A DNA stretch of 33,261 nt from a virus, in the UHGV virus genome UHGV-0185745. The stretch is one strand, 5' to 3'. Position numbers and translations under genes: made by a program. How positions within the stretch are numbered: position 1 is the first letter of the stretch; each line of letters opens with the position of its first letter. The notes beneath the pieces were generated by a model. The model saw nothing but the letters and a program-made list of their open reading frames with translations, was not told the origin of the DNA and did not search any database. This document shows, piece after piece, positions 6,604 to 29,919 of this stretch.

Positions 6604-6700
6604 CCGTTTAACTCCGTGGTTAATGGGTGCAACTATTTTCTGTTGTGCAGAGCATGAGACGCTATTTGACCTGGCTGGTCAGTGGATGAAACAACAGATA

Positions 6701-6726
6701 AAGAAAAGGCGAGCAATCAGCCCGCC
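6701..6726 (-). terminator. Possible intrinsic terminator insulating the cargo island from the FI late operon
   Basis: Minus-strand GGCGGG-CUGAUU-GCUCGCC hairpin (one G-U) followed by UUUUCUUUAUCUGUUGUUU. Confidence 0.3.
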
Positions 6727-6945
6727 TGCCTTGATTTGTACTCTCTCAGTTTCCAACTGACAAATTACGTAACCAAAACTCTGTCAAATCTGACAGTCTG
6801 CTTTGAGCGAAAAACAGGTATTGAGATACATAATAAATCATCTCAATTTTCAACTTTTCTGCCACTTAACATCTTGAGTAGTAAATAGTACAAAACTATC
6901 TACTGCCGAAGGGCTCTAGGAAGTATGGTTTCTGCACAATAAGAC

Positions 6946-7089
6946 TTATATCGGCTCACGGGGAGCCAAAAGATATTCATTGCCTAGAATTTGCAGATGA
7001 GGTGGTAATCTGTACTGGGGCGGTACTGCAACAGCTATGTATATTTCCACTGCGGTAATCTGTACCAGCAGGTAGAAGCTGTTATACAT
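6946..7089 (-). CDS. Candidate small ORF, 47 aa, hydrophobic N-terminus (MYNSFYLLVQITAVEIYIAVAVPPQY...)
   Basis: ATG 7089..7087 preceded by AGGGGCGGUG; not in the ORF track (<60 aa); overlaps an inverted repeat that could sequester its RBS. A 12-bp direct repeat falls in two different frames inside it, which argues against coding. Confidence 0.25.
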   Translation of the reverse strand: MYNSFYLLVQITAVEIYIAVAVPPQYRLPPHLQILGNEYLLAPREPI

Positions 7090-7125
7090 CACCGCCCCTG
7101 TAGTGCTAATCCGGAGATAGCACTA
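7017..7125. repeat. Structured non-coding element: 8-bp inverted repeat GGGGCGGT(7017-7024)/ACCGCCCC(7091-7098), 12-bp direct repeat GGTAATCTGTAC (7004-7015, 7054-7065), and 8-bp stem hairpin TAGTGCTA/TAGCACTA (7101-7108/7118-7125)
   Basis: Read directly from the sequence; located 50-170 nt downstream of the TOPRIM-like gene stop. Confidence 0.5.
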
Positions 7126-7177
7126 CTCTCATCAAGGCTTGTTCTTCCATAAACCGCAATAGGTGTTAGTTTTAGCC

Positions 7178-8035
7178 TTAATGTAAAATTAACAATTGAT
7201 TCAGACGCTTATGTAATTTTGTGGTTCTAAATGTATGATGATCGTAACTCATACGCATATAACTATCTATCTCATCCAGACGCATGTTCTTATTTACAGA
7301 TATATCAGTTTCATACATCATTTTTAATATACATGTAAAGTCATGACCATTGCATATAGAAAAATGATCTGGCGACATTAATTCTAATTTACGCATTTCA
7401 TTATATAAATTTTTCGCATTAAAATCCTTATCAGTACGACTCCTGCTAAGCACATGATTTATATATTTGGTTTCATCAACTACAACATCTGTCCTGTTAA
7501 TACTTACAAAATTCCTGTAATTCATTCCTTTGAAATTAAGATTGCTATGTGTAAGATAATTGTACCATTTGAGAAGTCCGATTTTATAGCATGCACAAAG
7601 GATGTTCATCTTTACATCCTGACAGAATATATCGGCCAATTCCCCTTGAATTAATTTTCTATCTGTATGTGACATAATGAATTTATCAACCGCACCACCT
7701 TTTACTAACATCATTTCAAGGTCATGAGCATCAGTATAAAAAATCCCCTCGTGATTTATTCCGCTTAACTCATCAAAGTCCGCGTCACATACACCATACA
7801 CAGCATTATTACCTGCACGACGTAATTGACTAACAGCCAATATTACTTCACGTTTTCCATTTTCAGGTGATTCATAAATGATTCTATTATCAAGCCGATA
7901 TGCATTGAAAAATCGGATATCTGAAATGCCCTCAACCACAATCAATATACAACGTTGATACATTTCATTTCTGAATAAAAGCATCATACTACTCAACCAA
8001 TCATCTTCGCGAACAGCATTGCGTAATGACATCAT
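7178..8035 (-). CDS. TOPRIM-like (OLD-family/DUF4435-like) putative nuclease, 285 aa; AriB-like partner of upstream ATPase
   Basis: Conserved Glu in ILIVVEGISD (E35) and DxD in YGVCDADFDE (D84, D86) about 50 aa later, the TOPRIM pattern; ATG abuts the stop of the ATPase gene (TAAATG); AT-rich. Confidence 0.6.
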   Translation of the reverse strand: MMSLRNAVREDDWLSSMMLLFRNEMYQRCILIVVEGISDIRFFNAYRLDNRIIYESPENGKREVILAVSQLRRAGNNAVYGVCDADFDELSGINHEGIFYTDAHDLEMMLVKGGAVDKFIMSHTDRKLIQGELADIFCQDVKMNILCACYKIGLLKWYNYLTHSNLNFKGMNYRNFVSINRTDVVVDETKYINHVLSRSRTDKDFNAKNLYNEMRKLELMSPDHFSICNGHDFTCILKMMYETDISVNKNMRLDEIDSYMRMSYDHHTFRTTKLHKRLNQLLILH

Positions 8036-9280
8036 TTACTCGTTTCCTTCTGAAAGCTGTTGGCTTTCATTTCTATTTCTAATCATTTCATATAGATCGT
8101 ATGTTAATTCCCAATTCTTACTAATTACTTGTGGTGAATGAGTAGCAATAATGACCTTTTCATACTTGTTAATCTTTTGTATTTTTTTGAGAGAATCCAA
8201 GAAAGTTTGTTGCCAGGCGACATGTAATGATATTTCTGGCTCGTCTATAAGAATTACTTTTTGTGAAACAAAATCGAAAATCAAATTAAAAAGAAGAACT
8301 ATTTGGTTCTGTTCACCTGATGAAAGCAAATTACGATCAATAACATCGCCATTGTGACTTTTGAAATAAAATCCGTTATCTCTATCAATCATCACTTTTT
8401 TAAAAGCTAAAACCTTTTCTTTCAAAATTGATTCAAATAAATCAATTTTTTGATGTAATGTCTGAAACGGTGACAATTTTCCAAGGGCATCTTCAATATA
8501 TAGATCCAACACACTTAGATATTCATTGCTACTATAAAAACTTGTGCTTTTTTGAGGCATTAGCTCGTTATCAGCCTGAATAAGGCCATAACGCATATAA
8601 TGTCGACGTTTATCTTGAATACCATTTAAGCGATCTTGAATATTTTCTGATGAAAATCGTTTTGATTGCTCTAAACGCTCAAATAATCGAATAGGAAATG
8701 TAGCGTCTAATTTTTGTGATAATGCAGCGGAATCATCTTGTGCATTTTTCATTAAATATTTTAATTTTCTAGCACATAAGTCAATGACTGTTTCATCAAC
8801 AGCTTTGACTTGTAATCGATCTGCACATATAAAAGATACGTCTTCTTTCGATGTAATATGACTTAACACATCCGAAGATAATGGTTTATCAGTTCGTAAT
8901 TTTTGTTTTGGTTTAACATCCCCCCTATGCAAGCTTACATAAAATAACTCTTCCATAATAGATTCATCTGTCTGTAACTTGAGTCTTTCTTCCGTTCTGT
9001 TTCCTGAGCTATTATCCAGATGATTCAATATTAAACCATCTTTATTGGTGTCATGAGTAATTGAAACAGAGCCACCTTGAAAATCAATTTTAATAAAATC
9101 AAAATTAAGTTTACAGAGAGCATTTAATTCATTTGTAAGAATACTATTGATGATTTTAAGAATCATTGTCTTACCATATCCATTTGGACCAGTAAGCATA
9201 GTAATTTCATTGTTATCCAAGGGAATTTCATAATCAAGGAGACCAAATAGTTTTTTTACTTTTAAATGTATCAATTTCAT
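8036..9280 (-). CDS. ABC-type ATPase (SMC/RecF/OLD-like; AAA_15/AAA_21-type), 414 aa; AriA-like
   Basis: Walker A GPNGYGKT (9167..9190), ABC signature LSSGEQ (aa 319-324), Walker B VILIDEPE (aa 342-349), H-loop IIATHSP; good RBS GAGG 6 nt upstream of ATG 9280. Confidence 0.7.
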   Translation of the reverse strand: MKLIHLKVKKLFGLLDYEIPLDNNEITMLTGPNGYGKTMILKIINSILTNELNALCKLNFDFIKIDFQGGSVSITHDTNKDGLILNHLDNSSGNRTEERLKLQTDESIMEELFYVSLHRGDVKPKQKLRTDKPLSSDVLSHITSKEDVSFICADRLQVKAVDETVIDLCARKLKYLMKNAQDDSAALSQKLDATFPIRLFERLEQSKRFSSENIQDRLNGIQDKRRHYMRYGLIQADNELMPQKSTSFYSSNEYLSVLDLYIEDALGKLSPFQTLHQKIDLFESILKEKVLAFKKVMIDRDNGFYFKSHNGDVIDRNLLSSGEQNQIVLLFNLIFDFVSQKVILIDEPEISLHVAWQQTFLDSLKKIQKINKYEKVIIATHSPQVISKNWELTYDLYEMIRNRNESQQLSEGNE

Positions 9281-9300
9281 ATCAACCTCGCAGACGATGA

Positions 9301-9306
9301 ATTATA
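9301..9306 (-). promoter_or_regulatory. Candidate -10 hexamer (TATAAT) for the ATPase/TOPRIM operon
   Basis: Perfect TATAAT on minus strand 20 nt upstream of the ATPase ATG; -35 is weak. Confidence 0.35.
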
Positions 9307-9772
9307 ACCATTTATTACATGGCGCATATGAAATGCAATATATCATTGTCATGAGTTGCATTTCAAACATATGCCCCAACATCAATGCTAAATCCGTGAT
9401 TAAAATTAATAAACTCCTGGTTTTTGCAAATAATTTCTTGCCCTAATAGTTTGGAAATACCTCTTTTAAATTTATAGTGAATAATATTACGCCCATTTAG
9501 TTCTCTCTTTGCAGAACTGAACATGTCGGGAGCTACTGTGTGGAGAAACACTGAAACGATCGTTAGTGAATATTTGCACACTGGTGATAGTACTAAACAG
9601 CCCTTTGGTCATGTCCGAAAAATAGTGACTCGTACAACATGATCGATGTGATAGCATTTATGACAGTGAAACATAACAATCACCTTTGAACATTTTCCAT
9701 ACGTGCATTATACCTATTAAATCTAAACAAAACAAATAGATATAAAATATTCATCCGCGTATCTTCATGCTC

Positions 9773-9975
9773 TCATATACCACATACGGGAGCCTTAACA
9801 TCAAGTACTAAGCACGTCGTGAAGCTGTTTCCGTTAAGACGACTTTGCACTACTTGACTGATTAGCCATGCCTGCTTGTCTATCACACATTTAAAGTTTT
9901 TCATCGCTAACGTAGTTAGTCCATTCCCTTGAATGGCGTTTTACCAGTCTATATATGACAAATATCGTACTTTTT
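9773..9975 (-). pseudogene. Decayed 3' fragment of a gpD-like tail gene (last ~40 codons intact as a 43-codon ORF 9773..9904; upstream part frameshifted/stop-interrupted)
   Basis: Minus-strand translation MKNFKCVIDKQAWLISQVVQSRLNGNSFTTCLVLDVKAPVCGI aligns without gaps to the gpD C-terminus in this window (GFKRVIDEQDWTITKVTHFLNNSGFTTSLELEVRLSDV...); DNA also matches (ACGTCGTGAAGC, CTGCT(T/C)GTCTAT, TTAAAG); upstream codons read TGKTPFKG vs gpD TETPVKVSGF in a shifted frame. Confidence 0.55.
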
Positions 9976-10310
9976 CCACATTCAGTCCAATTCATTCACC
10001 GCTCCCGATTCACCTACAACACCCTCTCAACGACGTTCTCTGTACCTGTAATACCGGCGCAAATTGCGTCGAAAATGTCGTTCTGCATCGCATAAACCTT
10101 CATCAGATTTGGCCTACAATGCAGCGAATAGTCTGAAATTAAAAACCGATGATGATGGACTGTACTGTTCATGCAAGTCTGGTCGCTCTGTGCCTCATCA
10201 AGGAATGAATAATGATCTTGGCGACGTCTACTCTTGGCACAGAGCGGACTGTCAGATTAGTTTTTACTCTGTTCCATAGATGAGTAATCTCACACCAGAT
10301 CTAATACAAT

Positions 10311-22373: not shown

Positions 22374-24146
22374 ATGACCATCACCACAGACACCACTCTT
22401 TTACACGACCCGCGTCGTCAGGCGGCGCTGCTGTACTGGCAGGGGTTTTCCGTGCCGCAGATTGCCGCCATGTTGCAGATGAAACGCCCGACGGTGCAGA
22501 GCTGGAAACAGCGCGACGGCTGGGACAGCGTTGCTCCCATCAGCCGTGTCGAAATGAGTCTGGAAGCGCGGCTGACCCAGCTCATCATAAAACCGCAGAA
22601 AACCGGCGGTGACTTCAAGGAAATTGACCTGCTCGGACGCCAGATTGAACGACTGGCACGGGTAAACCGCTACAACCAGACCGGCAACGAGGCAGACCTT
22701 AATCCGAACATCGCTAACCGCAACAAAGGCGGGCGGCGCAAACCGAAAAAGAATTTTTTCAGTGACGAGGCCATCGAAAAGCTGGAGCAGATTTTCTTTG
22801 AGCAGTCTTTCGACTATCAGTTGCACTGGTATCGCGCCGGGCTTGAGCACCGCATCCGCGATATCCTGAAATCCCGCCAGATTGGCGCGACGTTTTATTT
22901 TTCCCGCGAGGCGCTGCTGCGCGCCCTGAAAACCGGCCATAACCAGATTTTTCTGTCGGCCAGTAAAACGCAGGCGTATGTATTCCGTGAATACATCATC
23001 GCCTTTGCCCGTCTGGTTGACGTTGACCTGACCGGTGACCCGATTGTCCTGGGCAATAACGGCGCAAAACTGATTTTTCTCGGCACCAACTCCAACACCG
23101 CACAGAGCCATAACGGCGACCTGTACGTCGATGAGATTTTCTGGATCCCGAATTTTCAGGTACTGCGTAAGGTGGCATCAGGTATGGCCTCACAGAGTCA
23201 CCTGCGCTCGACCTATTTCTCCACCCCGTCCACGCTGGCGCACGACGCCTACCCGTTCTGGTCGGGTGAACTGTTCAACCGGGGACGCGCCAGCGCCGCC
23301 GAACGCGTGGAAATCGACGTCAGTCATAACGCCCTTGCCAGAGGTCTTCTCTGTGCGGACGGCCAGTGGCGGCAGATTGTCACCATTGAGGACGCCCTGA
23401 AAGGTGGCTGCACACTGTTCGACATTGAGCAGCTCAAACGTGAAAACAGCGCCGACGATTTTAAAAACCTGTTCATGTGTGAATTTGTTGACGACAAGGC
23501 GTCGGTGTTCCCGTTCGAGGAGCTGCAACGCTGCATGGTCGACACACTGGAAGAATGGGAAGACTACGCACCGTTTGCCGCCAATCCGTTCGGCTCCCGT
23601 CCGGTATGGATTGGTTACGACCCGTCACACCGTGGCGACAGTGCCGGATGCGTGGTGCTGGCACCGCCGGTGGTGGCCGGTGGCAAATTCAGAATACTTG
23701 AGCGTCACCAGTGGAAAGGCATGGACTTTGCCACCCAGGCGGAATCCATCCGCAAACTCACCGAAAAATATAACGTTGAATACATCGGGATTGATGCCAC
23801 CGGCCTCGGTGTCGGTGTGTTCCAGCTCGTGCGCTCGTTCTATCCCGCCGCGCGCGATATCCGCTACACGCCGGAAATGAAAACCGCAATGGTGCTCAAG
23901 GCAAAAGACGTTATCCGCCGTGGCTGTCTGGAATATGACGTCAGCGCCACCGACATCACCAGCTCGTTTATGGCTATCCGCAAGACCATGACCAGCAGCG
24001 GACGCAGCGCCACCTATGAGGCCAGCCGCAGCGAGGAAGCCAGCCACGCCGACCTCGCCTGGGCGACCATGCACGCCCTGTTAAATGAGCCACTCACCGC
24101 CGGTATCAGCACCCCGCTGACATCCACCATTCTGGAGTTTTACTGA
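22374..24146 (+). CDS. P: Terminase large (ATPase) subunit P, 590 aa
   Basis: ATG 22374 with GAGG 5 nt upstream (the track ORF starts at an upstream TTG); 590 aa as in P2; stop overlaps the Q start (ATGA). Confidence 0.9.
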   Translation: MTITTDTTLLHDPRRQAALLYWQGFSVPQIAAMLQMKRPTVQSWKQRDGWDSVAPISRVEMSLEARLTQLIIKPQKTGGDFKEIDLLGRQIERLARVNRYNQTGNEADLNPNIANRNKGGRRKPKKNFFSDEAIEKLEQIFFEQSFDYQLHWYRAGLEHRIRDILKSRQIGATFYFSREALLRALKTGHNQIFLSASKTQAYVFREYIIAFARLVDVDLTGDPIVLGNNGAKLIFLGTNSNTAQSHNGDLYVDEIFWIPNFQVLRKVASGMASQSHLRSTYFSTPSTLAHDAYPFWSGELFNRGRASAAERVEIDVSHNALARGLLCADGQWRQIVTIEDALKGGCTLFDIEQLKRENSADDFKNLFMCEFVDDKASVFPFEELQRCMVDTLEEWEDYAPFAANPFGSRPVWIGYDPSHRGDSAGCVVLAPPVVAGGKFRILERHQWKGMDFATQAESIRKLTEKYNVEYIGIDATGLGVGVFQLVRSFYPAARDIRYTPEMKTAMVLKAKDVIRRGCLEYDVSATDITSSFMAIRKTMTSSGRSATYEASRSEEASHADLAWATMHALLNEPLTAGISTPLTSTILEFY

Positions 24147-25180
24147 TGAGCAAGAAAAAAGGGAAAACACCGCGACCTGCGGCAAAAAAAATGACTGCCA
24201 GCGCCCCGAAAATGGAGGCATTCACCTTTGGTGAGCCGGTACCGGTACTCGACCGCCGTGACATTCTGGATTACGTCGAATGCATCAGTAACGGCAGATG
24301 GTATGAGCCACCGGTCAGCTTTACCGGTCTGGCAAAAAGCCTGCGTGCCGCCGTGCATCACAGCTCGCCGATTTACGTCAAACGCAATATTCTGGCCTCG
24401 ACATTTATCCCGCATCCGTGGCTTTCACAACAGGATTTCAGCCGCTTTGTGCTGGATTTTCTGGTGTTCGGTAATGCGTTTCTGGAAAAGCGTTACAGCA
24501 CCACCGGTAAGGTCATCAGGCTGGAAACCTCACCGGCAAAATATACCCGCCGTGGCGTGGAAGAGGATGTTTACTGGTGGGTGCCGTCCTTCAACGAGCC
24601 GACAGCCTTCGCGCCCGGCTCCGTGTTTCACCTGCTGGAGCCGGATATTAATCAGGAGTTGTACGGCCTGCCGGAATATCTCAGCGCCCTTAACTCTGCC
24701 TGGCTGAATGAGTCGGCCACGCTGTTCCGCCGCAAGTATTACGAAAATGGCGCACATGCCGGATACATCATGTACGTCACCGATGCCGTGCAGGATCGCA
24801 ACGATATCGAAATGCTTCGCGAAAACATGGTGAAGTCGAAAGGCCGCAATAACTTTAAAAATCTGTTTCTCTATGCCCCACAGGGGAAAGCCGACGGTAT
24901 TAAAATTATCCCCCTCAGTGAAGTGGCAACGAAGGACGATTTTTTTAATATCAAAAAAGCCAGCGCCGCTGACCTGCTGGACGCGCACCGCATCCCCTTT
25001 CAGTTGATGGGCGGCAAGCCGGAGAACGTCGGATCGCTGGGTGATATTGAGAAAGTGGCAAAGGTCTTTGTCCGCAATGAGCTTATCCCGTTACAGGACA
25101 GGATTCGGGAAATAAACGGCTGGCTCGGTCAGGAGGTCATCCGCTTTAAAAACTACTCACTGGACACTGACAACGGCTGA
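24146..25180 (+). CDS. Q: Portal protein Q, 344 aa
   Basis: P2 synteny P-Q-cos and length. Confidence 0.9.
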   Translation: MSKKKGKTPRPAAKKMTASAPKMEAFTFGEPVPVLDRRDILDYVECISNGRWYEPPVSFTGLAKSLRAAVHHSSPIYVKRNILASTFIPHPWLSQQDFSRFVLDFLVFGNAFLEKRYSTTGKVIRLETSPAKYTRRGVEEDVYWWVPSFNEPTAFAPGSVFHLLEPDINQELYGLPEYLSALNSAWLNESATLFRRKYYENGAHAGYIMYVTDAVQDRNDIEMLRENMVKSKGRNNFKNLFLYAPQGKADGIKIIPLSEVATKDDFFNIKKASAADLLDAHRIPFQLMGGKPENVGSLGDIEKVAKVFVRNELIPLQDRIREINGWLGQEVIRFKNYSLDTDNG

Positions 25181-25185
25181 ACATC

Positions 25186-25207
25186 GCCGCCTGCGGGCGG
25201 CTTTTTT
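25186..25207 (+). terminator. Intrinsic terminator after Q
   Basis: GCCGCC-TGCG-GGCGGC stem-loop followed by TTTTTT, 6 nt after the Q stop. Confidence 0.65.
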
Positions 25208-25349
25208 ACACCCCGTCATCACGCCCTCACACGCTCACCTCCACGCAAAACAGCCCGCAGACACACCAGCGCCCCGGCACACAATCTAAACGCCATCACG
25301 ACGCGCTCAGACGCTGAAAAAATAAAATCAGCACCACCGCCAGCGCGCA

Positions 25350-25368
25350 GTGCTTTCCCCGCCTCGCC
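25350..25368. other. cos site (19-nt cohesive-end sequence of P2 type)
   Basis: GTGCTTTCCCCGCCTCGCC is the reverse complement of the P2 cohesive end GGCGAGGCGGGGAAAGCAC as I recall it; located ~170 bp after Q, as in P2. Confidence 0.75.
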
Positions 25369-25641
25369 CGCCCGCTTCATGTTGCGGTTTTAATGCAAGT
25401 GCATAAACACGTCGAAACAGCACCAGTATTGGCGTAGTTGGCAAAGGGCATGAAATCAAAACACATGCAATTTAATGCAATAACGTCAGTATTACCAAGG
25501 ACAACAGAAACTAAGGTAATATCGCATAAAAAACCGACGAATCATGTCGTAGATTCAACTTTATCAGGCAGTTTTCACCGGTAGTACACAATTAAGTCTG
25601 ACGTCTTGTTCCTATTGAGTAGATTAAGATCTCGAATCTTC

Positions 25642-25670
25642 TTGACACTGATGCGCTCATCCTTATTCTG
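25642..25670 (+). promoter_or_regulatory. Candidate sigma70 promoter for the SIR2-like gene (TTGACA-N16-TATTCT)
   Basis: Perfect -35 TTGACA at 25642-25647; weak -10; ~95 nt upstream of the ATG. Confidence 0.3.
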
Positions 25671-25762
25671 CCAAAACATATGTCGCTTTTTGAAAGTCTG
25701 TTTGAAGTTTTATCTGCTATTTGGTTGTATAGAGATAACGATGATCAACTTCGAGAATTAAT

Positions 25763-27244
25763 ATGGAAATCAAAGAATTTGTCAGCCAGTACAAAAACCA
25801 CCCAGTTCTTTTTATAGGCACAGGTTTTAGTCTAAGATATCTGCAAAACTCATTCAGTTGGGATGGGTTATTGATGAAAATTGCCGTTGATTTAACTGGC
25901 AACCCTGAATTTTATTATGATCTTAAATCGGAAAGTATTGAAGGTGACGAATACAGATACGACATTCTTGCAACAAAATTAGAGAATATCTTCAATAAGA
26001 AACTCGCCGAAGACAGAAACGGAAAGTTTGAAAGCATCAATGATATTTTCTACGAGAACATGAGTCATGGAAAAAAACTTAGCCGATTCAAAATATACCT
26101 AACATCAATATTAAAAGACTCACCTCTCAAAGAAGATTTAAGAGATGAAATTAACAGCTTAATAAAAACAAGAAAGAATATTGGCTCAATTATTACTACC
26201 AATTACGATCAACTTATCGAAAATTTATTCGATTTCTCTCCGCTTATTGGCAACAATATATTGCTAAGCAATCCATATGGCTCGGTATATAAAATACACG
26301 GTTGTGTTAGTGACCCCAATAACATAATCATAACATCTGATGATTATAATAACTTTAATGACAAATATGAGTTAATACGTGCTCAACTATTATCTATATT
26401 CATTCACAACCCCATTATTTTTTTAGGATATAGCATCAGCGACAAGAATATTAAATACCTCCTGCAGACAATATTTTCATATGTAGATCTAAATACTGAA
26501 CTAGCAAAAAAAATAAAAGACAACTTTCTCCTTGTTGAATATGATGAGGGGAACATGTCTACAACTATTTCTGAACATGATATTAACATTGAAGGTTTAT
26601 CCATTATAAGAATTAACAAAATCAAAACAGACAATTACAAAGCCGTTTACGATGCCATATCTAATTTAATTCTCCCTGTTTCCGCAATGGATATAAGAAA
26701 AGTACAAAAAGTCTGGAATACAATAAAAAGTGGCGGTGAAATCAAGGTAAAAATCACGGAAAACCTCGATGAATTACGGAATGAAGAAATGGTAATCGCT
26801 GTAGGCTCAGAAAGAACTGTTACCTACGAATACCAGACAAAATCTGAAATGATTCAAAATTACTTTAAAATTGTCGATGAAGCTAACGCACAACTCATTG
26901 CACTTTTGAATAAACAAACTATCACAAATCATGAGCACTTTCCAATTTACGCATTTAGTTCTGTATGCCCTGAATTAGAAAACGTTCAGCTATACAAAGA
27001 CAGACAATTGGATAAGATAATAAATCAACTCACTAGAATTAAAGCGTGCAAATGTGATGCAACAACAATAGATGAGATATTAGAAACAACAAAAGAATAT
27101 AAAGTAGCCAATACAATCATGTATTGTGTACTTAATGACACAATTTCCTTAGCACAACTCAGAAAATATCTTATCTCTATATCACACAAAATAGATACTC
27201 ATTACCGTAAATTATTGTGCCTGTATGATTTTCTATCATACTAA
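25763..27244 (+). CDS. SIR2-like domain protein (putative NAD+-hydrolysing defence effector), 493 aa; C-terminal ~250 aa of unknown function
   Basis: N-terminal Rossmann-type VLFIGTGFS (aa 15-23), IITTNYDQLIE (N147, D149), KIHGC (H179), FLGYSISD (aa 220-227): the pattern I associate with SIR2_2-type domains of ThsA/DSR proteins; strongly AT-rich; sits at the P2 tin/old slot. Confidence 0.5.
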   Translation: MEIKEFVSQYKNHPVLFIGTGFSLRYLQNSFSWDGLLMKIAVDLTGNPEFYYDLKSESIEGDEYRYDILATKLENIFNKKLAEDRNGKFESINDIFYENMSHGKKLSRFKIYLTSILKDSPLKEDLRDEINSLIKTRKNIGSIITTNYDQLIENLFDFSPLIGNNILLSNPYGSVYKIHGCVSDPNNIIITSDDYNNFNDKYELIRAQLLSIFIHNPIIFLGYSISDKNIKYLLQTIFSYVDLNTELAKKIKDNFLLVEYDEGNMSTTISEHDINIEGLSIIRINKIKTDNYKAVYDAISNLILPVSAMDIRKVQKVWNTIKSGGEIKVKITENLDELRNEEMVIAVGSERTVTYEYQTKSEMIQNYFKIVDEANAQLIALLNKQTITNHEHFPIYAFSSVCPELENVQLYKDRQLDKIINQLTRIKACKCDATTIDEILETTKEYKVANTIMYCVLNDTISLAQLRKYLISISHKIDTHYRKLLCLYDFLSY

Positions 27245-27259
27245 GCATAAAAATATATA

Positions 27260-27290
27260 AACCGTCAGAATGAACTGACGGTTTATATTT
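27260..27290. terminator. Bidirectional intrinsic terminator between convergent SIR2-like gene and A
   Basis: AACCGTCAG-AATGAA-CTGACGGTT hairpin flanked by an A-tract upstream and TATATTT downstream. Confidence 0.55.
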
Positions 27291-27356
27291 ATTACATAGC
27301 CCCATATGTACAGAACGCTATTCCCCTTATTCACAACTAATAAAAACCGAAGATTC

Positions 27357-29654
27357 TCAGTAATGTTCACTACTGAACGCCATAAAGTTGGAGAATCCCG
27401 GCCACTCATCAGCGACCGGATACGTGAATTTTTTCCCGTCATAATTTACGGTCGCGCCACACGCCAGCGCCTCAAGCTCCCATCGCTGCGGCCTGATACC
27501 GTTCTGAGCAAGGTCAACGCGGATACGGGTGATTTGCAATCGTTCAGACCGGGTCAGTCTGGCCGATGGTGCAATTTCATGCGGTTTTAACGGGCTTCCG
27601 TTTCTTTGCTGACGATTTGGCGTTCTCAGCCCGTGTTTTAATGCGCCCCTGAGCGCCTTCACGACCTCCGGCTCATTCCATTCGATAACACCGTCATCAA
27701 CCAGATTAAGCACTGCTGCGGCGTGCTCAGAGGGTGTGGGAGCCGGTAACGAAGTATCACCACCGGTGACCTTTCCACAGTTATTGACAGGACTCCGAGG
27801 CGCGGCGATGCCGCTTTTTAAAGTCAAAGGCTCCACGACCGGAACTTTCGGAACAATGCGCCAGTCCGTCGTTCTGGTGATATGAATATGACGCGCGCCG
27901 AGATGCGGCGCGTAAATGCCGACCACTCTCTCGACTTCTTCCTCGTACTCGTTAACTTCATCCGACGGGCTACGGGCGACTCTGACAGTCTGGCAATTGC
28001 GCGGAACATTTGCCCCACCCTGCGCACTGATATACAACGCAAAATCGCCACTGTCTGCGGCGGCGCGTGCAGCCTCGACGCGCTCGTCAAACTCATCAGC
28101 AATGCTGACGCCGCGAGGCAATTTACGTAGTTCACGGTAAGCCCCCATTGTCGGCAGGCCAACCGTTTTAAATTGCGGGATGCGCCACGTTGACGCCCAT
28201 GCGGTAACAGCCGCCGCTGTGTCTTTCAGCGGCCTGCCGGTATCGTTATCGAGCTGACCATCCAGTGCATAGCCGTCGATGTTTTTTGAAATGTATTTCG
28301 CGATATACCCCGCAGCACCGCCCCGGTTAAGGTGTTTTGCCTGAAAACGGTTTCGCGCGGCTCCTCTTTCGCCGCCATCCTCTTTGAGCGCATAGCGACG
28401 CATGATTTCGATAATCTGGTTACGCTGGCGCGGATTACAAAAAAGCATCATATGCCAGTGCGGCGTTCCGTCGTGGTGTGGCTCGACGACACGCAAACCG
28501 TAGACCTGTAAATCATTATCCTTGAATGCCGTGCGCATCAGGCTCCAGATATGGCAGAGATAACGCTGCGCATCCTTTGGATTAAATGCCTCATCGTTCC
28601 AGCCGTGATTTAGCTGGACGGTTTTACTTTCGCCTTTTCCGACCTGACGTGTCGGGTGATACTTTGACGGCGCGGTCAGCGTGATAAACATCCCCACATC
28701 ACCCTCTGCTGCGGCGTAACGCTCAATACCGGCAATGGTGTTCATCAGCTCCATCCGGCGAATTTCAGGATTAGAAATACTGCCCATCACCTTACTGATA
28801 AGGTCGATGCGCTCGCCGGTTTCCCTGTTTTCAAGGTCACACGATTTAAGAAATTCCAGATTTGCCTGGCGGCGCGCACGCACATCACGAATGGCGTGTT
28901 TACTGGCATAAGGAGAACGGTCTTTATTGACCTCCCCGACAGCTATCAGTAACGCTTCATGCCAGCGCATACGCTGGCCTTTAAGCTGATGAGTCCACCA
29001 CTCATCGTTAAACAGACGGGCAATGGCAGAATATGCCTGCCTCGTGGTCATCTGTCCTTTACGGTATTTTTTCCAGTAAAGCGGGGAAATATTGAAAGCA
29101 CGTGCAGCGCCAGCAACATGACCATACAGATGCGCCTGCGCCTCATCCGTAAACAGCGATTCTTTTTCGCCATGCGCATCCACCCAGGCATCGCAGAGTT
29201 CCTCATACATCATGAAAAGCTGCGATGAGATACGGGCGGCAAACTTTTTCAGCTCCTTGTCATTCATCCCCGGCAGACGCGCATAGTGGTCACGCTCAGC
29301 CAGAAACAGCATCGACGCTTCGGTGTTCATTTCATGGCGCTGATTCACACGCTCAATGCGCGGCCATAAACGACGCTGAAAAGTGGATGTGAGAAAATAA
29401 AACCCGTGCACCGGGCTTTTATTGCGCCGGATGTAGTCATAGCGTGAAGTAAACAGCGAGCGCAAAAAGTAAGGCAGGCGGTTAATCGTGGATAAAACAC
29501 CTTGCACCTGACGCATCTCGTCACGTGTAAGAGGTCTTTCGCGCCAGACAGCCTCGCGTGGCGCGTTCCATGCATAAGCACCGGTAAACGCCTTACCGGT
29601 GCCTGCGGCAAATGCTGACGGAGGGACAAAACGCCCGGAGGCTTTAACGGCCAT
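27357..29654 (-). CDS. A: Replication initiation protein A (rolling-circle HUH nickase), ~765 aa
   Basis: HUH-like motif PHWHMML and tyrosine pair AGYIAKYISK; ATG at 29654 (MAVKASG...); the track ORF starts at an upstream TTG (29696). Confidence 0.9.
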   Translation of the reverse strand: MAVKASGRFVPPSAFAAGTGKAFTGAYAWNAPREAVWRERPLTRDEMRQVQGVLSTINRLPYFLRSLFTSRYDYIRRNKSPVHGFYFLTSTFQRRLWPRIERVNQRHEMNTEASMLFLAERDHYARLPGMNDKELKKFAARISSQLFMMYEELCDAWVDAHGEKESLFTDEAQAHLYGHVAGAARAFNISPLYWKKYRKGQMTTRQAYSAIARLFNDEWWTHQLKGQRMRWHEALLIAVGEVNKDRSPYASKHAIRDVRARRQANLEFLKSCDLENRETGERIDLISKVMGSISNPEIRRMELMNTIAGIERYAAAEGDVGMFITLTAPSKYHPTRQVGKGESKTVQLNHGWNDEAFNPKDAQRYLCHIWSLMRTAFKDNDLQVYGLRVVEPHHDGTPHWHMMLFCNPRQRNQIIEIMRRYALKEDGGERGAARNRFQAKHLNRGGAAGYIAKYISKNIDGYALDGQLDNDTGRPLKDTAAAVTAWASTWRIPQFKTVGLPTMGAYRELRKLPRGVSIADEFDERVEAARAAADSGDFALYISAQGGANVPRNCQTVRVARSPSDEVNEYEEEVERVVGIYAPHLGARHIHITRTTDWRIVPKVPVVEPLTLKSGIAAPRSPVNNCGKVTGGDTSLPAPTPSEHAAAVLNLVDDGVIEWNEPEVVKALRGALKHGLRTPNRQQRNGSPLKPHEIAPSARLTRSERLQITRIRVDLAQNGIRPQRWELEALACGATVNYDGKKFTYPVADEWPGFSNFMAFSSEHY

Positions 29655-29919
29655 ATGAGCCAAAAGCCTCTGAACAACGCTTGCTGAGTTGCTCAACCTG
29701 CGCGTTTAAATCAGCAAAAGATTTTGCGCTTCCGGTCAGAATATCGTGATGCATCAGGCCGGAAACGAGCTGGCTTAATTTCGGGTAATAACCAACCACC
29801 GCCAGCCATTCCTGACCGGCGTTTTTACCGCTTTCCGCTCTCTTTTTCTCGTGGAGAATAAACTGAAAGCTGTCACTGGTAACGACATAACGTTCGCCAA
29901 TTTCAATACGAATACTCAT
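29644..29919 (-). CDS. Hypothetical early protein, 91 aa
   Basis: ORF in the early operon between B and A; ATG start; overlaps A start. Confidence 0.5.
   Translation of the reverse strand: MSIRIEIGERYVVTSDSFQFILHEKKRAESGKNAGQEWLAVVGYYPKLSQLVSGLMHHDILTGSAKSFADLNAQVEQLSKRCSEAFGSYGR

What the first reader, a model, noticed from the sequence alone, without database searches (positions are those of the whole stretch)
25763..27244. Single-gene SIR2-like protein with an unassigned C-terminal half in the tin/old cargo slot: candidate novel NAD+-depleting defence effector
Seen in sequence: one 493-aa ORF occupies the whole AT-rich island between cos and replication gene A, bracketed by a TTGACA promoter candidate and a strong hairpin terminator. 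Its N-terminal ~230 aa carry VLFIGTGFS, TTNYD and KIHG motifs in the order and spacing I associate with SIR2-type NADase domains of ThsA and DSR proteins. The C-terminal ~250 aa show no motif I recognise (a few Cys: CPELENV, KACKCD). Established: SIR2-domain proteins in Thoeris, DSR1/DSR2, SIR2-HerA and SIR2-pAgo defend by NAD+ depletion, and this locus is where P2 carries tin and old. Inference: a stand-alone effector plus sensor. There is no TIR (ThsB) or HerA partner in the island, and it is about half the size of DSR proteins, so it does not fit the described SIR2 systems I know.
Basis: partly seen in the sequence, partly recalled or inferred. Interest (0 to 1): 0.85.

Follow-up and report, generated by a model that had tools for sequence, protein, structure and literature searches.

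The report
Single-gene SIR2 defence candidate in P2 prophage
A P2-like prophage carries, in its known variable defence slot, one self-contained gene for an immune-type SIR2 (NAD+-cleaving) enzyme fused to an uncharacterised helical tail; databases already list it as an untested anti-phage candidate (PADLOC PDC-S25), so it is a sensible target for experiments, not a discovery.

Summary
A 493-aa ORF (25763..27244, +) fills a 31-37% GC island between P2 cos (25350-25368) and gene A. It is variable cargo: the flanks occur in 2156 of 5426 complete E. coli genomes, the island in 5.

The gene always moves alone, through several prophage types, IS-flanked chromosomal sites and Firmicute phages, with no conserved partner.

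It is not unrecorded. It matches PADLOC candidate PDC-S25 full length (E 6e-157) and phrog_2695, and this exact protein (WP_021514374) is listed in Rousset et al. 2022's table of P2 hotspot cargo. I found no experimental test.

Most likely it is a one-protein abortive-infection NADase with a built-in sensor. The fold is well supported; the defence role and NAD+ depletion are inferred.

The parts
25350..25368 (.). P2-type cos cohesive-end sequence; left boundary landmark of the cargo slot
   Evidence: Exact match to GTGCTTTCCCCGCCTCGCC, the reverse complement of the P2/P4 cos core that is visible in the cloned sequences of Rousset 2022 Table S2.
25410..27386 (.). AT-rich cargo island, about 2 kb, absent from other P2-like phages
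   Evidence: GC 0.31-0.37. P2-family phage records align only to the outer ~200 bp and ~310 bp of the query 25200-27700. The full island is in 5 of 5426 complete E. coli genomes, the flanks in 2156. Boundaries are approximate.
25642..25669 (+).
   Evidence: 10 of 12 matches. Not enriched over shuffles, and the -35 is not conserved in the closest homologue's locus. Function uncertain.
25716..25734 (+). Conserved 19-nt upstream element GCTATTTGGTTGTATAGAG, 28-46 nt before the ATG
   Evidence: Nearly invariant in three different genomic contexts (window, L018, L021) while the surrounding DNA diverges. Role unknown; it could be a core promoter or operator, or a 5'-UTR element.
25763..27244 (+). 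SIR2-family gene, 493 aa (RefSeq WP_021514374), PADLOC PDC-S25 / phrog_2695
25763..26662 (+). SIR2 (SIR2_2, immune-type) catalytic domain, aa 1-300. It carries the G19/G21/S23 NAD-binding loop, N147, D149 and H179. It has a helical insert (aa 24-140) in place of the sirtuin zinc ribbon.
26663..26830 (+). Conserved family-specific segment, aa 301-356 (LPVSAMDIRKVQ...GG...), low structural confidence
   Evidence: 71% mean identity across A1, as conserved as the SIR2 core, yet pLDDT below 50 for 306-356 in both models. Inferred to be a flexible or interface element.
26831..27241 (+). All-alpha C-terminal domain, aa 357-493, with no known relative; inferred sensor or regulatory domain
26993..27202 (+). 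Hypervariable patch, aa 411-480, within the helical domain
   Evidence: Mean pairwise identity 31% against 64% for aa 1-410. Example P0007: 86/91/50/85% by region. DNA homology to other loci drops out here and resumes for the last ~50 nt.
27255..27288 (.). Symmetric 14-bp hairpin between the convergent SIR2 gene and gene A; probable bidirectional terminator that travels with the cargo
   Evidence: -19 kcal/mol, z -6.75. Scored as terminator-like. Conserved with a compensatory stem change in L018. DNA shared with L018 ends exactly at 27288.

Best explanation
The gene encodes a self-contained, prophage-borne anti-phage protein of the SIR2 NADase kind.

Proposed mechanism:
- The lysogen expresses it from the P2 tin/old cargo slot. 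It is oriented like old, convergent with gene A.
- The N-terminal SIR2 domain (aa 1-300) is kept inactive in uninfected cells.
- The C-terminal helical domain, through its fast-evolving 411-480 surface, recognises a product of a competing phage.
- Recognition triggers a conformational change or assembly. This probably involves the two highly conserved but structurally uncertain segments 159-175 and 306-356, by analogy with the filament or oligomer activation of ThsA, KomC, Avs5 and FAM118B.
- The activated SIR2 domain hydrolyses NAD+ through N147 and H179, which stops phage replication (abortive infection).

Shown here: the fold, the catalytic residues, single-gene mobility, cargo status, and faster divergence of the C-terminal patch.

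Inferred: the defence role, NAD+ depletion, the sensor function and oligomeric activation.
For: 1. Enzyme identity.
- Pfam SIR2_2 E 3e-22.
- A PDB profile search hits only immune SIR2s: DSR2 1e-10, ThsA 1.6e-9, KomC 5.5e-7.
- N147 and H179 align to DSR2 N133 and H171. They are invariant in 62 close relatives and 115 distant ones.
- There is no zinc-ribbon cysteine set.

2. Defence association.
- Full-length match to PADLOC PDC-S25, E 6e-157. That family was nominated because members are embedded in BREX, DISARM or type I RM loci.
- The slot is the experimentally established P2 defence hotspot.
- The exact protein is listed among that hotspot's cargo.

3. Autonomy.
- The neighbours differ in every context: P2 slot; an Enc34/PolA prophage-like element in E. 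coli O21 and Klebsiella; the lambdoid P-nin slot in Cronobacter; IS-flanked chromosome in Aeromonas and Nitrosospira; a Firmicute mobile element beside a reverse transcriptase.
- It sits in the lysin-integrase moron slot of Lactococcus phage BK5-T and beside the lysis genes of Bacillus prophage phBC6A51.
- 79 IMG/VR viral loci encode relatives.
- A relative only 46% identical sits in the same slot of another P2-like phage in the opposite orientation.
- DNA shared with the closest homologue covers just 111 nt upstream, the ORF and the hairpin.

4. Sensor-like tail.
- aa 411-480 average 31% pairwise identity against 64% elsewhere, in a confidently folded helical domain.

5. Precedent.
- Single-protein SIR2 defences exist: DSR2, and 'sole-Sir2' with NADase activity and T2/T4 protection.
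Against: - I found no experiment on this family. PDC candidates are explicitly untested.
- A related stand-alone SIR2 from the P4 hotspot (pFR88, 31% identical over the SIR2 domain) appears only among Rousset's 'additional tested systems' (Table S2B), not among the validated systems of Table S2A. By inference it gave no protection against their 8 phages.
- The fast evolution of aa 411-480 could be relaxed constraint rather than diversifying selection. dN/dS could not decide because synonymous sites are saturated.
- The C-terminal domain resembles no known sensor.
- SIR2 folds can also ADP-ribosylate or deacylate, and sequence cannot separate these chemistries.
- Oligomeric activation is argued only by analogy.
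Confidence: 0.6

Rival explanations
1. It is an NAD+-dependent protein- or nucleic-acid-modifying enzyme (ADP-ribosyltransferase or deacylase) that the prophage uses to alter a host or phage target. This would be lysogenic conversion or a targeted block, not bulk NAD+ depletion.
Confidence: 0.13
2. It is an orphan, ThsA-like effector that waits for a small-molecule signal made in trans by a host or co-resident system, such as a TIR protein. It would not sense phage directly.
For: The SIR2 domain is close to ThsA and KomC, both signal-activated. In the E. coli O21 element a CAP12-PCTIR TIR protein lies two genes downstream of the 83%-identical homologue.
Against: There is no SLOG or Macro domain: the tail is all-alpha with no match to ThsA beyond residue 301. 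The TIR neighbour is absent from the Klebsiella version of the same element and from every other context. A hypervariable tail is not expected for a conserved small-molecule pocket.
Confidence: 0.1
3. It has no anti-phage role. It is a selfish or addiction-type toxin, or a decaying passenger gene, that happens to ride in variable slots of mobile elements.
For: No phenotype is known. The related P4-hotspot SIR2 is absent from Rousset's validated list. It is rare in E. coli: 5 of 5426 complete genomes.
Against: Purifying selection is strong: amino-acid identity is 83% while synonymous sites are saturated. Catalytic residues are invariant over 115 divergent clusters. There are 255 representative clusters at E below 1e-30 with the same length and architecture. 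Temperate phages of distant phyla have captured it repeatedly.
Confidence: 0.1
4. It is an ordinary housekeeping sirtuin deacetylase.
For: Only the shared SIR2 superfamily fold.
Against: It matches Pfam SIR2_2, not the classical SIR2 family. It lacks the zinc ribbon. It is accessory and horizontally mobile. Classical sirtuins are only distant structural neighbours.
Confidence: 0.02

Closest known systems
PADLOC phage-defence candidate PDC-S25 (Payne et al. 2024 preprint, 10.1101/2024.01.29.577857) = phrog_2695
   Same: Same family over the full length: PDLC04968 E 6e-157, residues 2-493 against profile positions 13-514 of 517; phrog_2695 E 2e-155. Single gene.
   Different: Nothing differs; this is the family it belongs to. 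The family is only a computational candidate, with no tested function or mechanism.
DSR2 (defence-associated sirtuin 2, Bacillus subtilis)
   Same: One protein with an N-terminal SIR2 NADase carrying the same Asn and His, followed by a helical C-terminal region. DSR2's C-terminal region senses a phage protein (the tail tube), and NAD+ depletion aborts infection (PMC10973363).
   Different: DSR2 is about 1000 aa. Similarity is confined to SIR2 residues 139-236. The 137-aa helical domain here has no detectable relation to the DSR2 C-terminal domain. PADLOC DSR models do not match beyond a weak Dsr1 SIR2 hit, E 1e-5.
ThsA of type I Thoeris; KomC of Kongming
   Different: Both need partner genes that make a signal (ThsB TIR; KomA/B). 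ThsA also has a SLOG signal-binding domain. Here there is no partner and no SLOG.
sole-Sir2 (CRISPR-supervised immune systems preprint, 10.1101/2024.12.27.630466)
   Same: A small (~440 aa) stand-alone SIR2 protein with demonstrated NAD+-to-ADPR activity. A homologue protects against T2 and T4.
   Different: The domain order is reversed: its SIR2 is C-terminal and the unknown part N-terminal.
pFR88 single-gene SIR2 from the P4 satellite hotspot (Rousset et al. 2022, Table S2B)
   Same: A stand-alone SIR2 in the sister cos-adjacent hotspot. It is 31% identical over residues 2-300, including the PxIGxxIL...KIHGC block.
   Different: Its C-terminal region is unrelated. It is listed only among the 'additional tested systems', not the validated ones.
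AbiH (Lactococcus single-gene abortive-infection protein with a predicted sirtuin-like fold)
   Same: A single-gene phage-resistance determinant predicted to be SIR2-like (PMC13064643).
   Different: No Pfam AbiH match at E up to 1, so it is a different family.

Membership tests
SIR2_2 / immune-type SIR2 ('SIRim') superfamily | Significant match to the Pfam SIR2_2 profile | tested here: met
   79.6 bits against a gathering cut-off of 24.5, E 3.2e-22, residues 142-239.
SIR2_2 / immune-type SIR2 ('SIRim') superfamily | SIR2 Rossmann-type fold nearer to antiphage NADases than to classical sirtuins | tested here: met
SIR2_2 / immune-type SIR2 ('SIRim') superfamily | Catalytic Asn and His, and the glycine-rich NAD-binding loop | tested here: met
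   N147 and H179 align with DSR2 N133 and H171. G19, G21, N147, K177, H179 and G180 are 100% conserved in 115 relatives clustered at 50% identity or less.
SIR2_2 / immune-type SIR2 ('SIRim') superfamily | NAD+ glycohydrolase activity | not testable with these tools
   Needs purified protein or NAD+ measurements in cells.
PADLOC PDC-S25 candidate family | Full-length match to the family HMM, as a single gene | tested here: met
   PDLC04968 E 6.4e-157, residues 2-493 against positions 13-514 of 517. Both halves match separately: E 7e-116 and 8e-36.
PADLOC PDC-S25 candidate family | Anti-phage activity | not testable with these tools
   The source preprint calls its 145 PDCs untested. The only paper held that mentions PDC-S25 merely lists it in a genome.
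P2 tin/old (gpQ-cos-gpA) defence hotspot cargo (Rousset et al. 2022) | Located between portal gene Q / cos and replication gene A, with variable occupancy among P2-like phages | tested here: met
   Q at 24146..25180, cos at 25350-25368, A at 27357..29696. The island is in 5 complete E. coli genomes and the flanks in 2156. WP_021514374 is listed as a 'SIR2_2' arrangement in Table S5A.
Thoeris | Adjacent ThsB (TIR) gene | tested here: not met
   The island holds one ORF. The only other AT-rich island in the window holds PARIS genes. No conserved TIR neighbour in 10 other contexts.
Thoeris | ThsA C-terminal SLOG (or Macro) signal-binding domain | tested here: not met
DSR1 / DSR2 | Protein of ~1000 aa or more, with a family-specific middle and C-terminal sensor region | tested here: not met
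   493 aa. DSR2 similarity is limited to residues 139-236. Dsr1 HMM scores E 1.3e-5 on the SIR2 part only.
SIR2-HerA (Nezha) and SIR2-APAZ/pAgo | Partner HerA or short Argonaute gene in the operon | tested here: not met
   No second gene in the island. No such neighbour in any related context.
AbiH | Match to the Pfam AbiH profile | tested here: not met
   Only SIR2_2, and a non-significant Big_3, reported at E up to 1.
sole-Sir2 | ~440 aa with a C-terminal SIR2 domain and an N-terminal unknown domain | tested here: not met
   Here SIR2 is N-terminal, the opposite of the published description. Sequence homology could not be tested because no sequence was held.

The most novel reading that the evidence does not exclude
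The 137-aa helical tail, with its hypervariable 411-480 surface, is a new compact class of direct phage-protein sensor. It would gate a SIR2 NADase through the two ultra-conserved flexible segments (159-175 and 306-356), probably by triggered oligomerisation. That would make this the smallest self-sufficient sensor-plus-SIR2 immune protein, with allele-specific phage recognition that temperate phages of several phyla use against rivals.
Probability: 0.3. Interest if true: 0.55.

Novelty: new variant of a known kind. Interest (0 to 1): 0.4.

Why it matters
If the prediction holds, a 493-aa single protein would combine phage sensing and NAD+ depletion. That is half the size of DSR2 and needs no partner, which makes it a tractable model for how SIR2 immune effectors are switched on.

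The fast-evolving 70-residue patch offers a direct handle for mapping recognition specificity, by swapping alleles and selecting phage escape mutants.

It would also turn an untested database candidate (PDC-S25) into a validated system, improving defence annotation in Enterobacterales, Aeromonas, Vibrio and Firmicute prophages.

The prophage also carries PARIS in its second cargo slot. It is therefore a natural case of two abortive-infection systems delivered by one temperate phage.

The gain is incremental: single-protein SIR2 NADase defence and P2 hotspot cargo are both established concepts.

Tried and rejected
1. dN/dS on aa 411-480 against the rest, by Nei-Gojobori against four homologues. 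Synonymous sites are saturated (pS 0.72-0.94), so positive selection cannot be separated from relaxed constraint.
2. Test for cassette swapping of the variable patch. No pair has a variable region more similar than its backbone (correlation 0.76). Fast divergence is shown; exchange is not.
3. Search for the C-terminal 194 aa in other domain architectures. Only fragments of the same family were returned, with no fusions to other effectors. Ten distant relatives show no Pfam domain in their tails, apart from one Lsr2 DNA-binding domain.
5. Rfam scan of the island for a regulatory RNA. Only one sub-threshold chance hit.
6. The -35 is not conserved.
7. Literature searches for PDC-S25, the accession, phrog_2695 and stand-alone SIR2 defence. 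No functional study of this family turned up. The cold-seep study tested other PDCs, not S25.
8. Considered and rejected as family assignments: Thoeris, DSR, SIR2-HerA, SIR2-pAgo, AbiH and housekeeping sirtuin (see the membership tests).

Full report
**Observation.**
The ORF is as described: 25763..27244 on the + strand, 493 aa, ATG start. It lies in an island where GC falls to 0.31-0.37, against 0.51-0.59 in the flanks. On the left are the terminase and portal genes (portal 24146..25180) and the P2 cos core GTGCTTTCCCCGCCTCGCC at 25350-25368. On the right is replication gene A, convergent, at 27357..29696.

A 14-bp symmetric hairpin at 27255-27288 folds at -19 kcal/mol, z = -6.75. The TTGACA-N16-TATTCT site at 25642-25669 exists, but promoter-like sites are not enriched in this AT-rich DNA (10 found, 8.9 expected).

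**Cargo, not backbone.**
Megablast of 25200-27700 against phage records matched P2-family phages only at the two ends of the query. In 5426 complete E. coli genomes the flanks occur in 2156 and the full island in 5, all 100% identical and annotated 'SIR2 family protein'. The same slot elsewhere holds DUF3850/ASCH genes, Panacea-domain genes and others. This is the cos-adjacent hotspot between gpA and gpQ that Rousset et al. 2022 described and partly validated. The identical protein, WP_021514374, appears as a single-gene 'SIR2_2' arrangement in their Table S5A. It was not among the systems they cloned. The only SIR2 they tested came from the P4 hotspot (pFR88). It is 31% identical to this protein over the SIR2 domain, has an unrelated tail, and sits in their list of additional, non-validated systems.

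**What the protein is.**
- Sequence profiles. Pfam SIR2_2 scores 79.6 bits, E 3e-22. PADLOC gives a full-length match to candidate family PDC-S25 (E 6.4e-157) and partial matches to ThsA confined to residues 127-301. PHROGs gives phrog_2695, function unknown, full length. NCBIfam gives nothing useful.
- Solved structures. A family profile searched against PDB sequences hits only immune SIR2 proteins, and only through residues ~136-301: DSR2 1e-10, ThsA, KomC, FAM118B. In that alignment TTNYD and KIHG pair with DSR2 N133 and H171, the residue mutated in the deposited inactive structures.
- Predicted structure. An AlphaFold2 model from 62 homologues (pLDDT 76, pTM 0.74) shows a SIR2 fold over 1-300 and a helical domain over 357-493. 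Two stretches have low confidence: 159-175 and 306-356.
- No zinc ribbon. There is no cysteine in the 24-140 insert.

**Family and conservation.**
The family is large and uniform. There are 1736 hits in the 90%-clustered database, full length, ~495-510 aa, across Enterobacterales, Aeromonas, Vibrio, Nitrosospira and Firmicutes. There are 255 clusters at 50% identity with E below 1e-30, nearly all 490-560 aa. Across 115 such representatives the NAD-binding and catalytic residues are 100% conserved. The tail keeps anchor residues P394 (97%) and D489 (92%), so the two-domain architecture defines the family.

Among 62 closer relatives, the two segments with the lowest model confidence (159-175 and 301-340) are among the most conserved: 89% and ~77% identity to the query. 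Residues 411-480 are the least conserved, at 25-34%. Region by region, P0007 is 86/91/50/85% identical and P0014 against P0015 is 90% against 40%. Mean pairwise identity is 31% in the patch and 64% elsewhere. Synonymous sites are saturated, so dN/dS cannot say whether this is diversifying selection. I found no sign of cassette exchange.

**It moves alone.**
- E. coli O21 and Klebsiella: between an Enc34-type ssDNA-binding gene and a DNA polymerase A gene in an integrase-bearing, phage-like element.
- Cronobacter: between lambda-P-like and nin genes of a lambdoid prophage.
- Aeromonas and Nitrosospira: next to IS elements among housekeeping genes.
- Firmicutes: in a recombinase-rich element beside a large reverse transcriptase.
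- Salmonella: near integrases.
- Lactococcus phage BK5-T: between lysin and integrase, with its own annotated promoter and terminators.
- Bacillus prophage phBC6A51: beside the lysis genes.
- IMG/VR: 79 viral loci hold relatives.
- Four of those loci have P2-type Q and/or A genes. They include a 46%-identical allele inserted in the opposite orientation in another P2-like phage, together with an unrelated 310-aa ORF.

No neighbour is conserved. DNA similarity to the closest homologue's locus (91% aa) spans exactly 25652-27288, that is 111 nt upstream, the ORF and the hairpin. The hairpin carries a compensatory stem change. Rfam finds no known RNA in the island.

**Mechanism.**
The best-supported reading is a one-protein abortive-infection system. 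An immune-type SIR2 NADase would be held inactive until the helical tail detects a competing phage. It would then be activated, probably by assembly, as in ThsA, KomC, Avs5 and FAM118B, whose solved structures in the hit lists are helical filaments.

The enzyme class and its autonomy are shown. The defence role rests on association:
- the hotspot itself;
- the 'guilt-by-embedding' nomination of PDC-S25;
- repeated capture by temperate phages.

NAD+ depletion, the sensor role and oligomeric activation are inferences. Published precedents for single-protein SIR2 defence are DSR2 and the reversed-order 'sole-Sir2', which cleaves NAD+ and whose homologue blocks T2 and T4. Rival readings are a modifying enzyme, an orphan signal-responsive effector, and a non-defence passenger. 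They are weighed separately in this report and are less likely.

**Comparison and novelty.**
It is a member of the SIR2_2 immune clade and of PADLOC's PDC-S25. It is not a Thoeris, DSR, SIR2-HerA, SIR2-pAgo or AbiH member, because defining features were tested and not met.

It works most like DSR2 (effector plus fused sensor), but it is half the size and its tail is unrelated to any characterised domain. The family is already catalogued as a candidate, and this exact locus is tabulated in the P2 hotspot survey. What remains open is experimental: function, trigger and activation. I found no study of it.

I rate it a new variant of a known kind, of moderate interest.

**Also seen.**
The prophage's second AT-rich island (about 6650-10200) carries an AriA-like ATPase and a DUF4435/AriB gene, which is a PARIS system.

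Noticed in passing
window 7178-9280 (- strand), within the AT-rich island at about 6650-10200: The second P2 cargo slot (Z/fun position, between tail sheath and tail-fibre assembly genes) holds two genes. One is a 414-aa AAA_15/AAA_21 ATPase (PADLOC AriA, E 2e-25). The other is a 285-aa DUF4435 protein (AriB, E 2.5e-21). Together they form a PARIS anti-phage system, so this prophage carries two defence cargos.
   Followed up: partly
window 25716-25734: A 19-nt element GCTATTTGGTTGTATAGAG lies 28-46 nt upstream of the ATG. It is nearly invariant in three unrelated genomic contexts while the surrounding DNA diverges. It contains a short CTAT/ATAG inverted repeat. It could be the real core promoter, an operator or a 5'-UTR signal.
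   Followed up: partly
window 26237-26287 (aa 159-175) and 26678-26830 (aa 306-356): The two segments with the lowest AlphaFold confidence (pLDDT below 50) are among the most conserved parts of the protein (89% and ~75% identity across 62 homologues). This pattern suggests flexible elements that become ordered only in an oligomer or activated state.
   Followed up: no
L054 4001-5512 (IMG/VR UViG_2651870175_000004): Another P2-like phage (gpA 83%, gpQ 76% identical) carries a 503-aa member of the same SIR2 family, only 46% identical, in the same gpA-gpQ slot but in the opposite orientation. Next to it is a 310-aa ORF with HNH-like Cys/His motifs. This looks like an independent acquisition.
   Followed up: partly
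L011 9691-10449 (E. coli O21 contig AARYPC010000026.1): In the Enc34/PolA-type element that carries the 83%-identical homologue, a CAP12-PCTIR TIR-domain protein lies two genes downstream, after the DNA polymerase gene. It is absent from the otherwise similar Klebsiella element, so it is probably a separate cargo rather than a partner.
   Followed up: partly
protein P0201 (579 aa), residues 542-576: One distant family member ends in an Lsr2 DNA-binding domain (Pfam E 2.5e-7). This hints that some relatives are tethered to DNA.
   Followed up: no
window 25763-27241 compared with L011, L012, L001: Synonymous differences are saturated (pS 0.8-0.9) between genes whose proteins are still 70-84% identical. 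This indicates old divergence under strong purifying selection despite the gene's patchy, mobile distribution.
   Followed up: no
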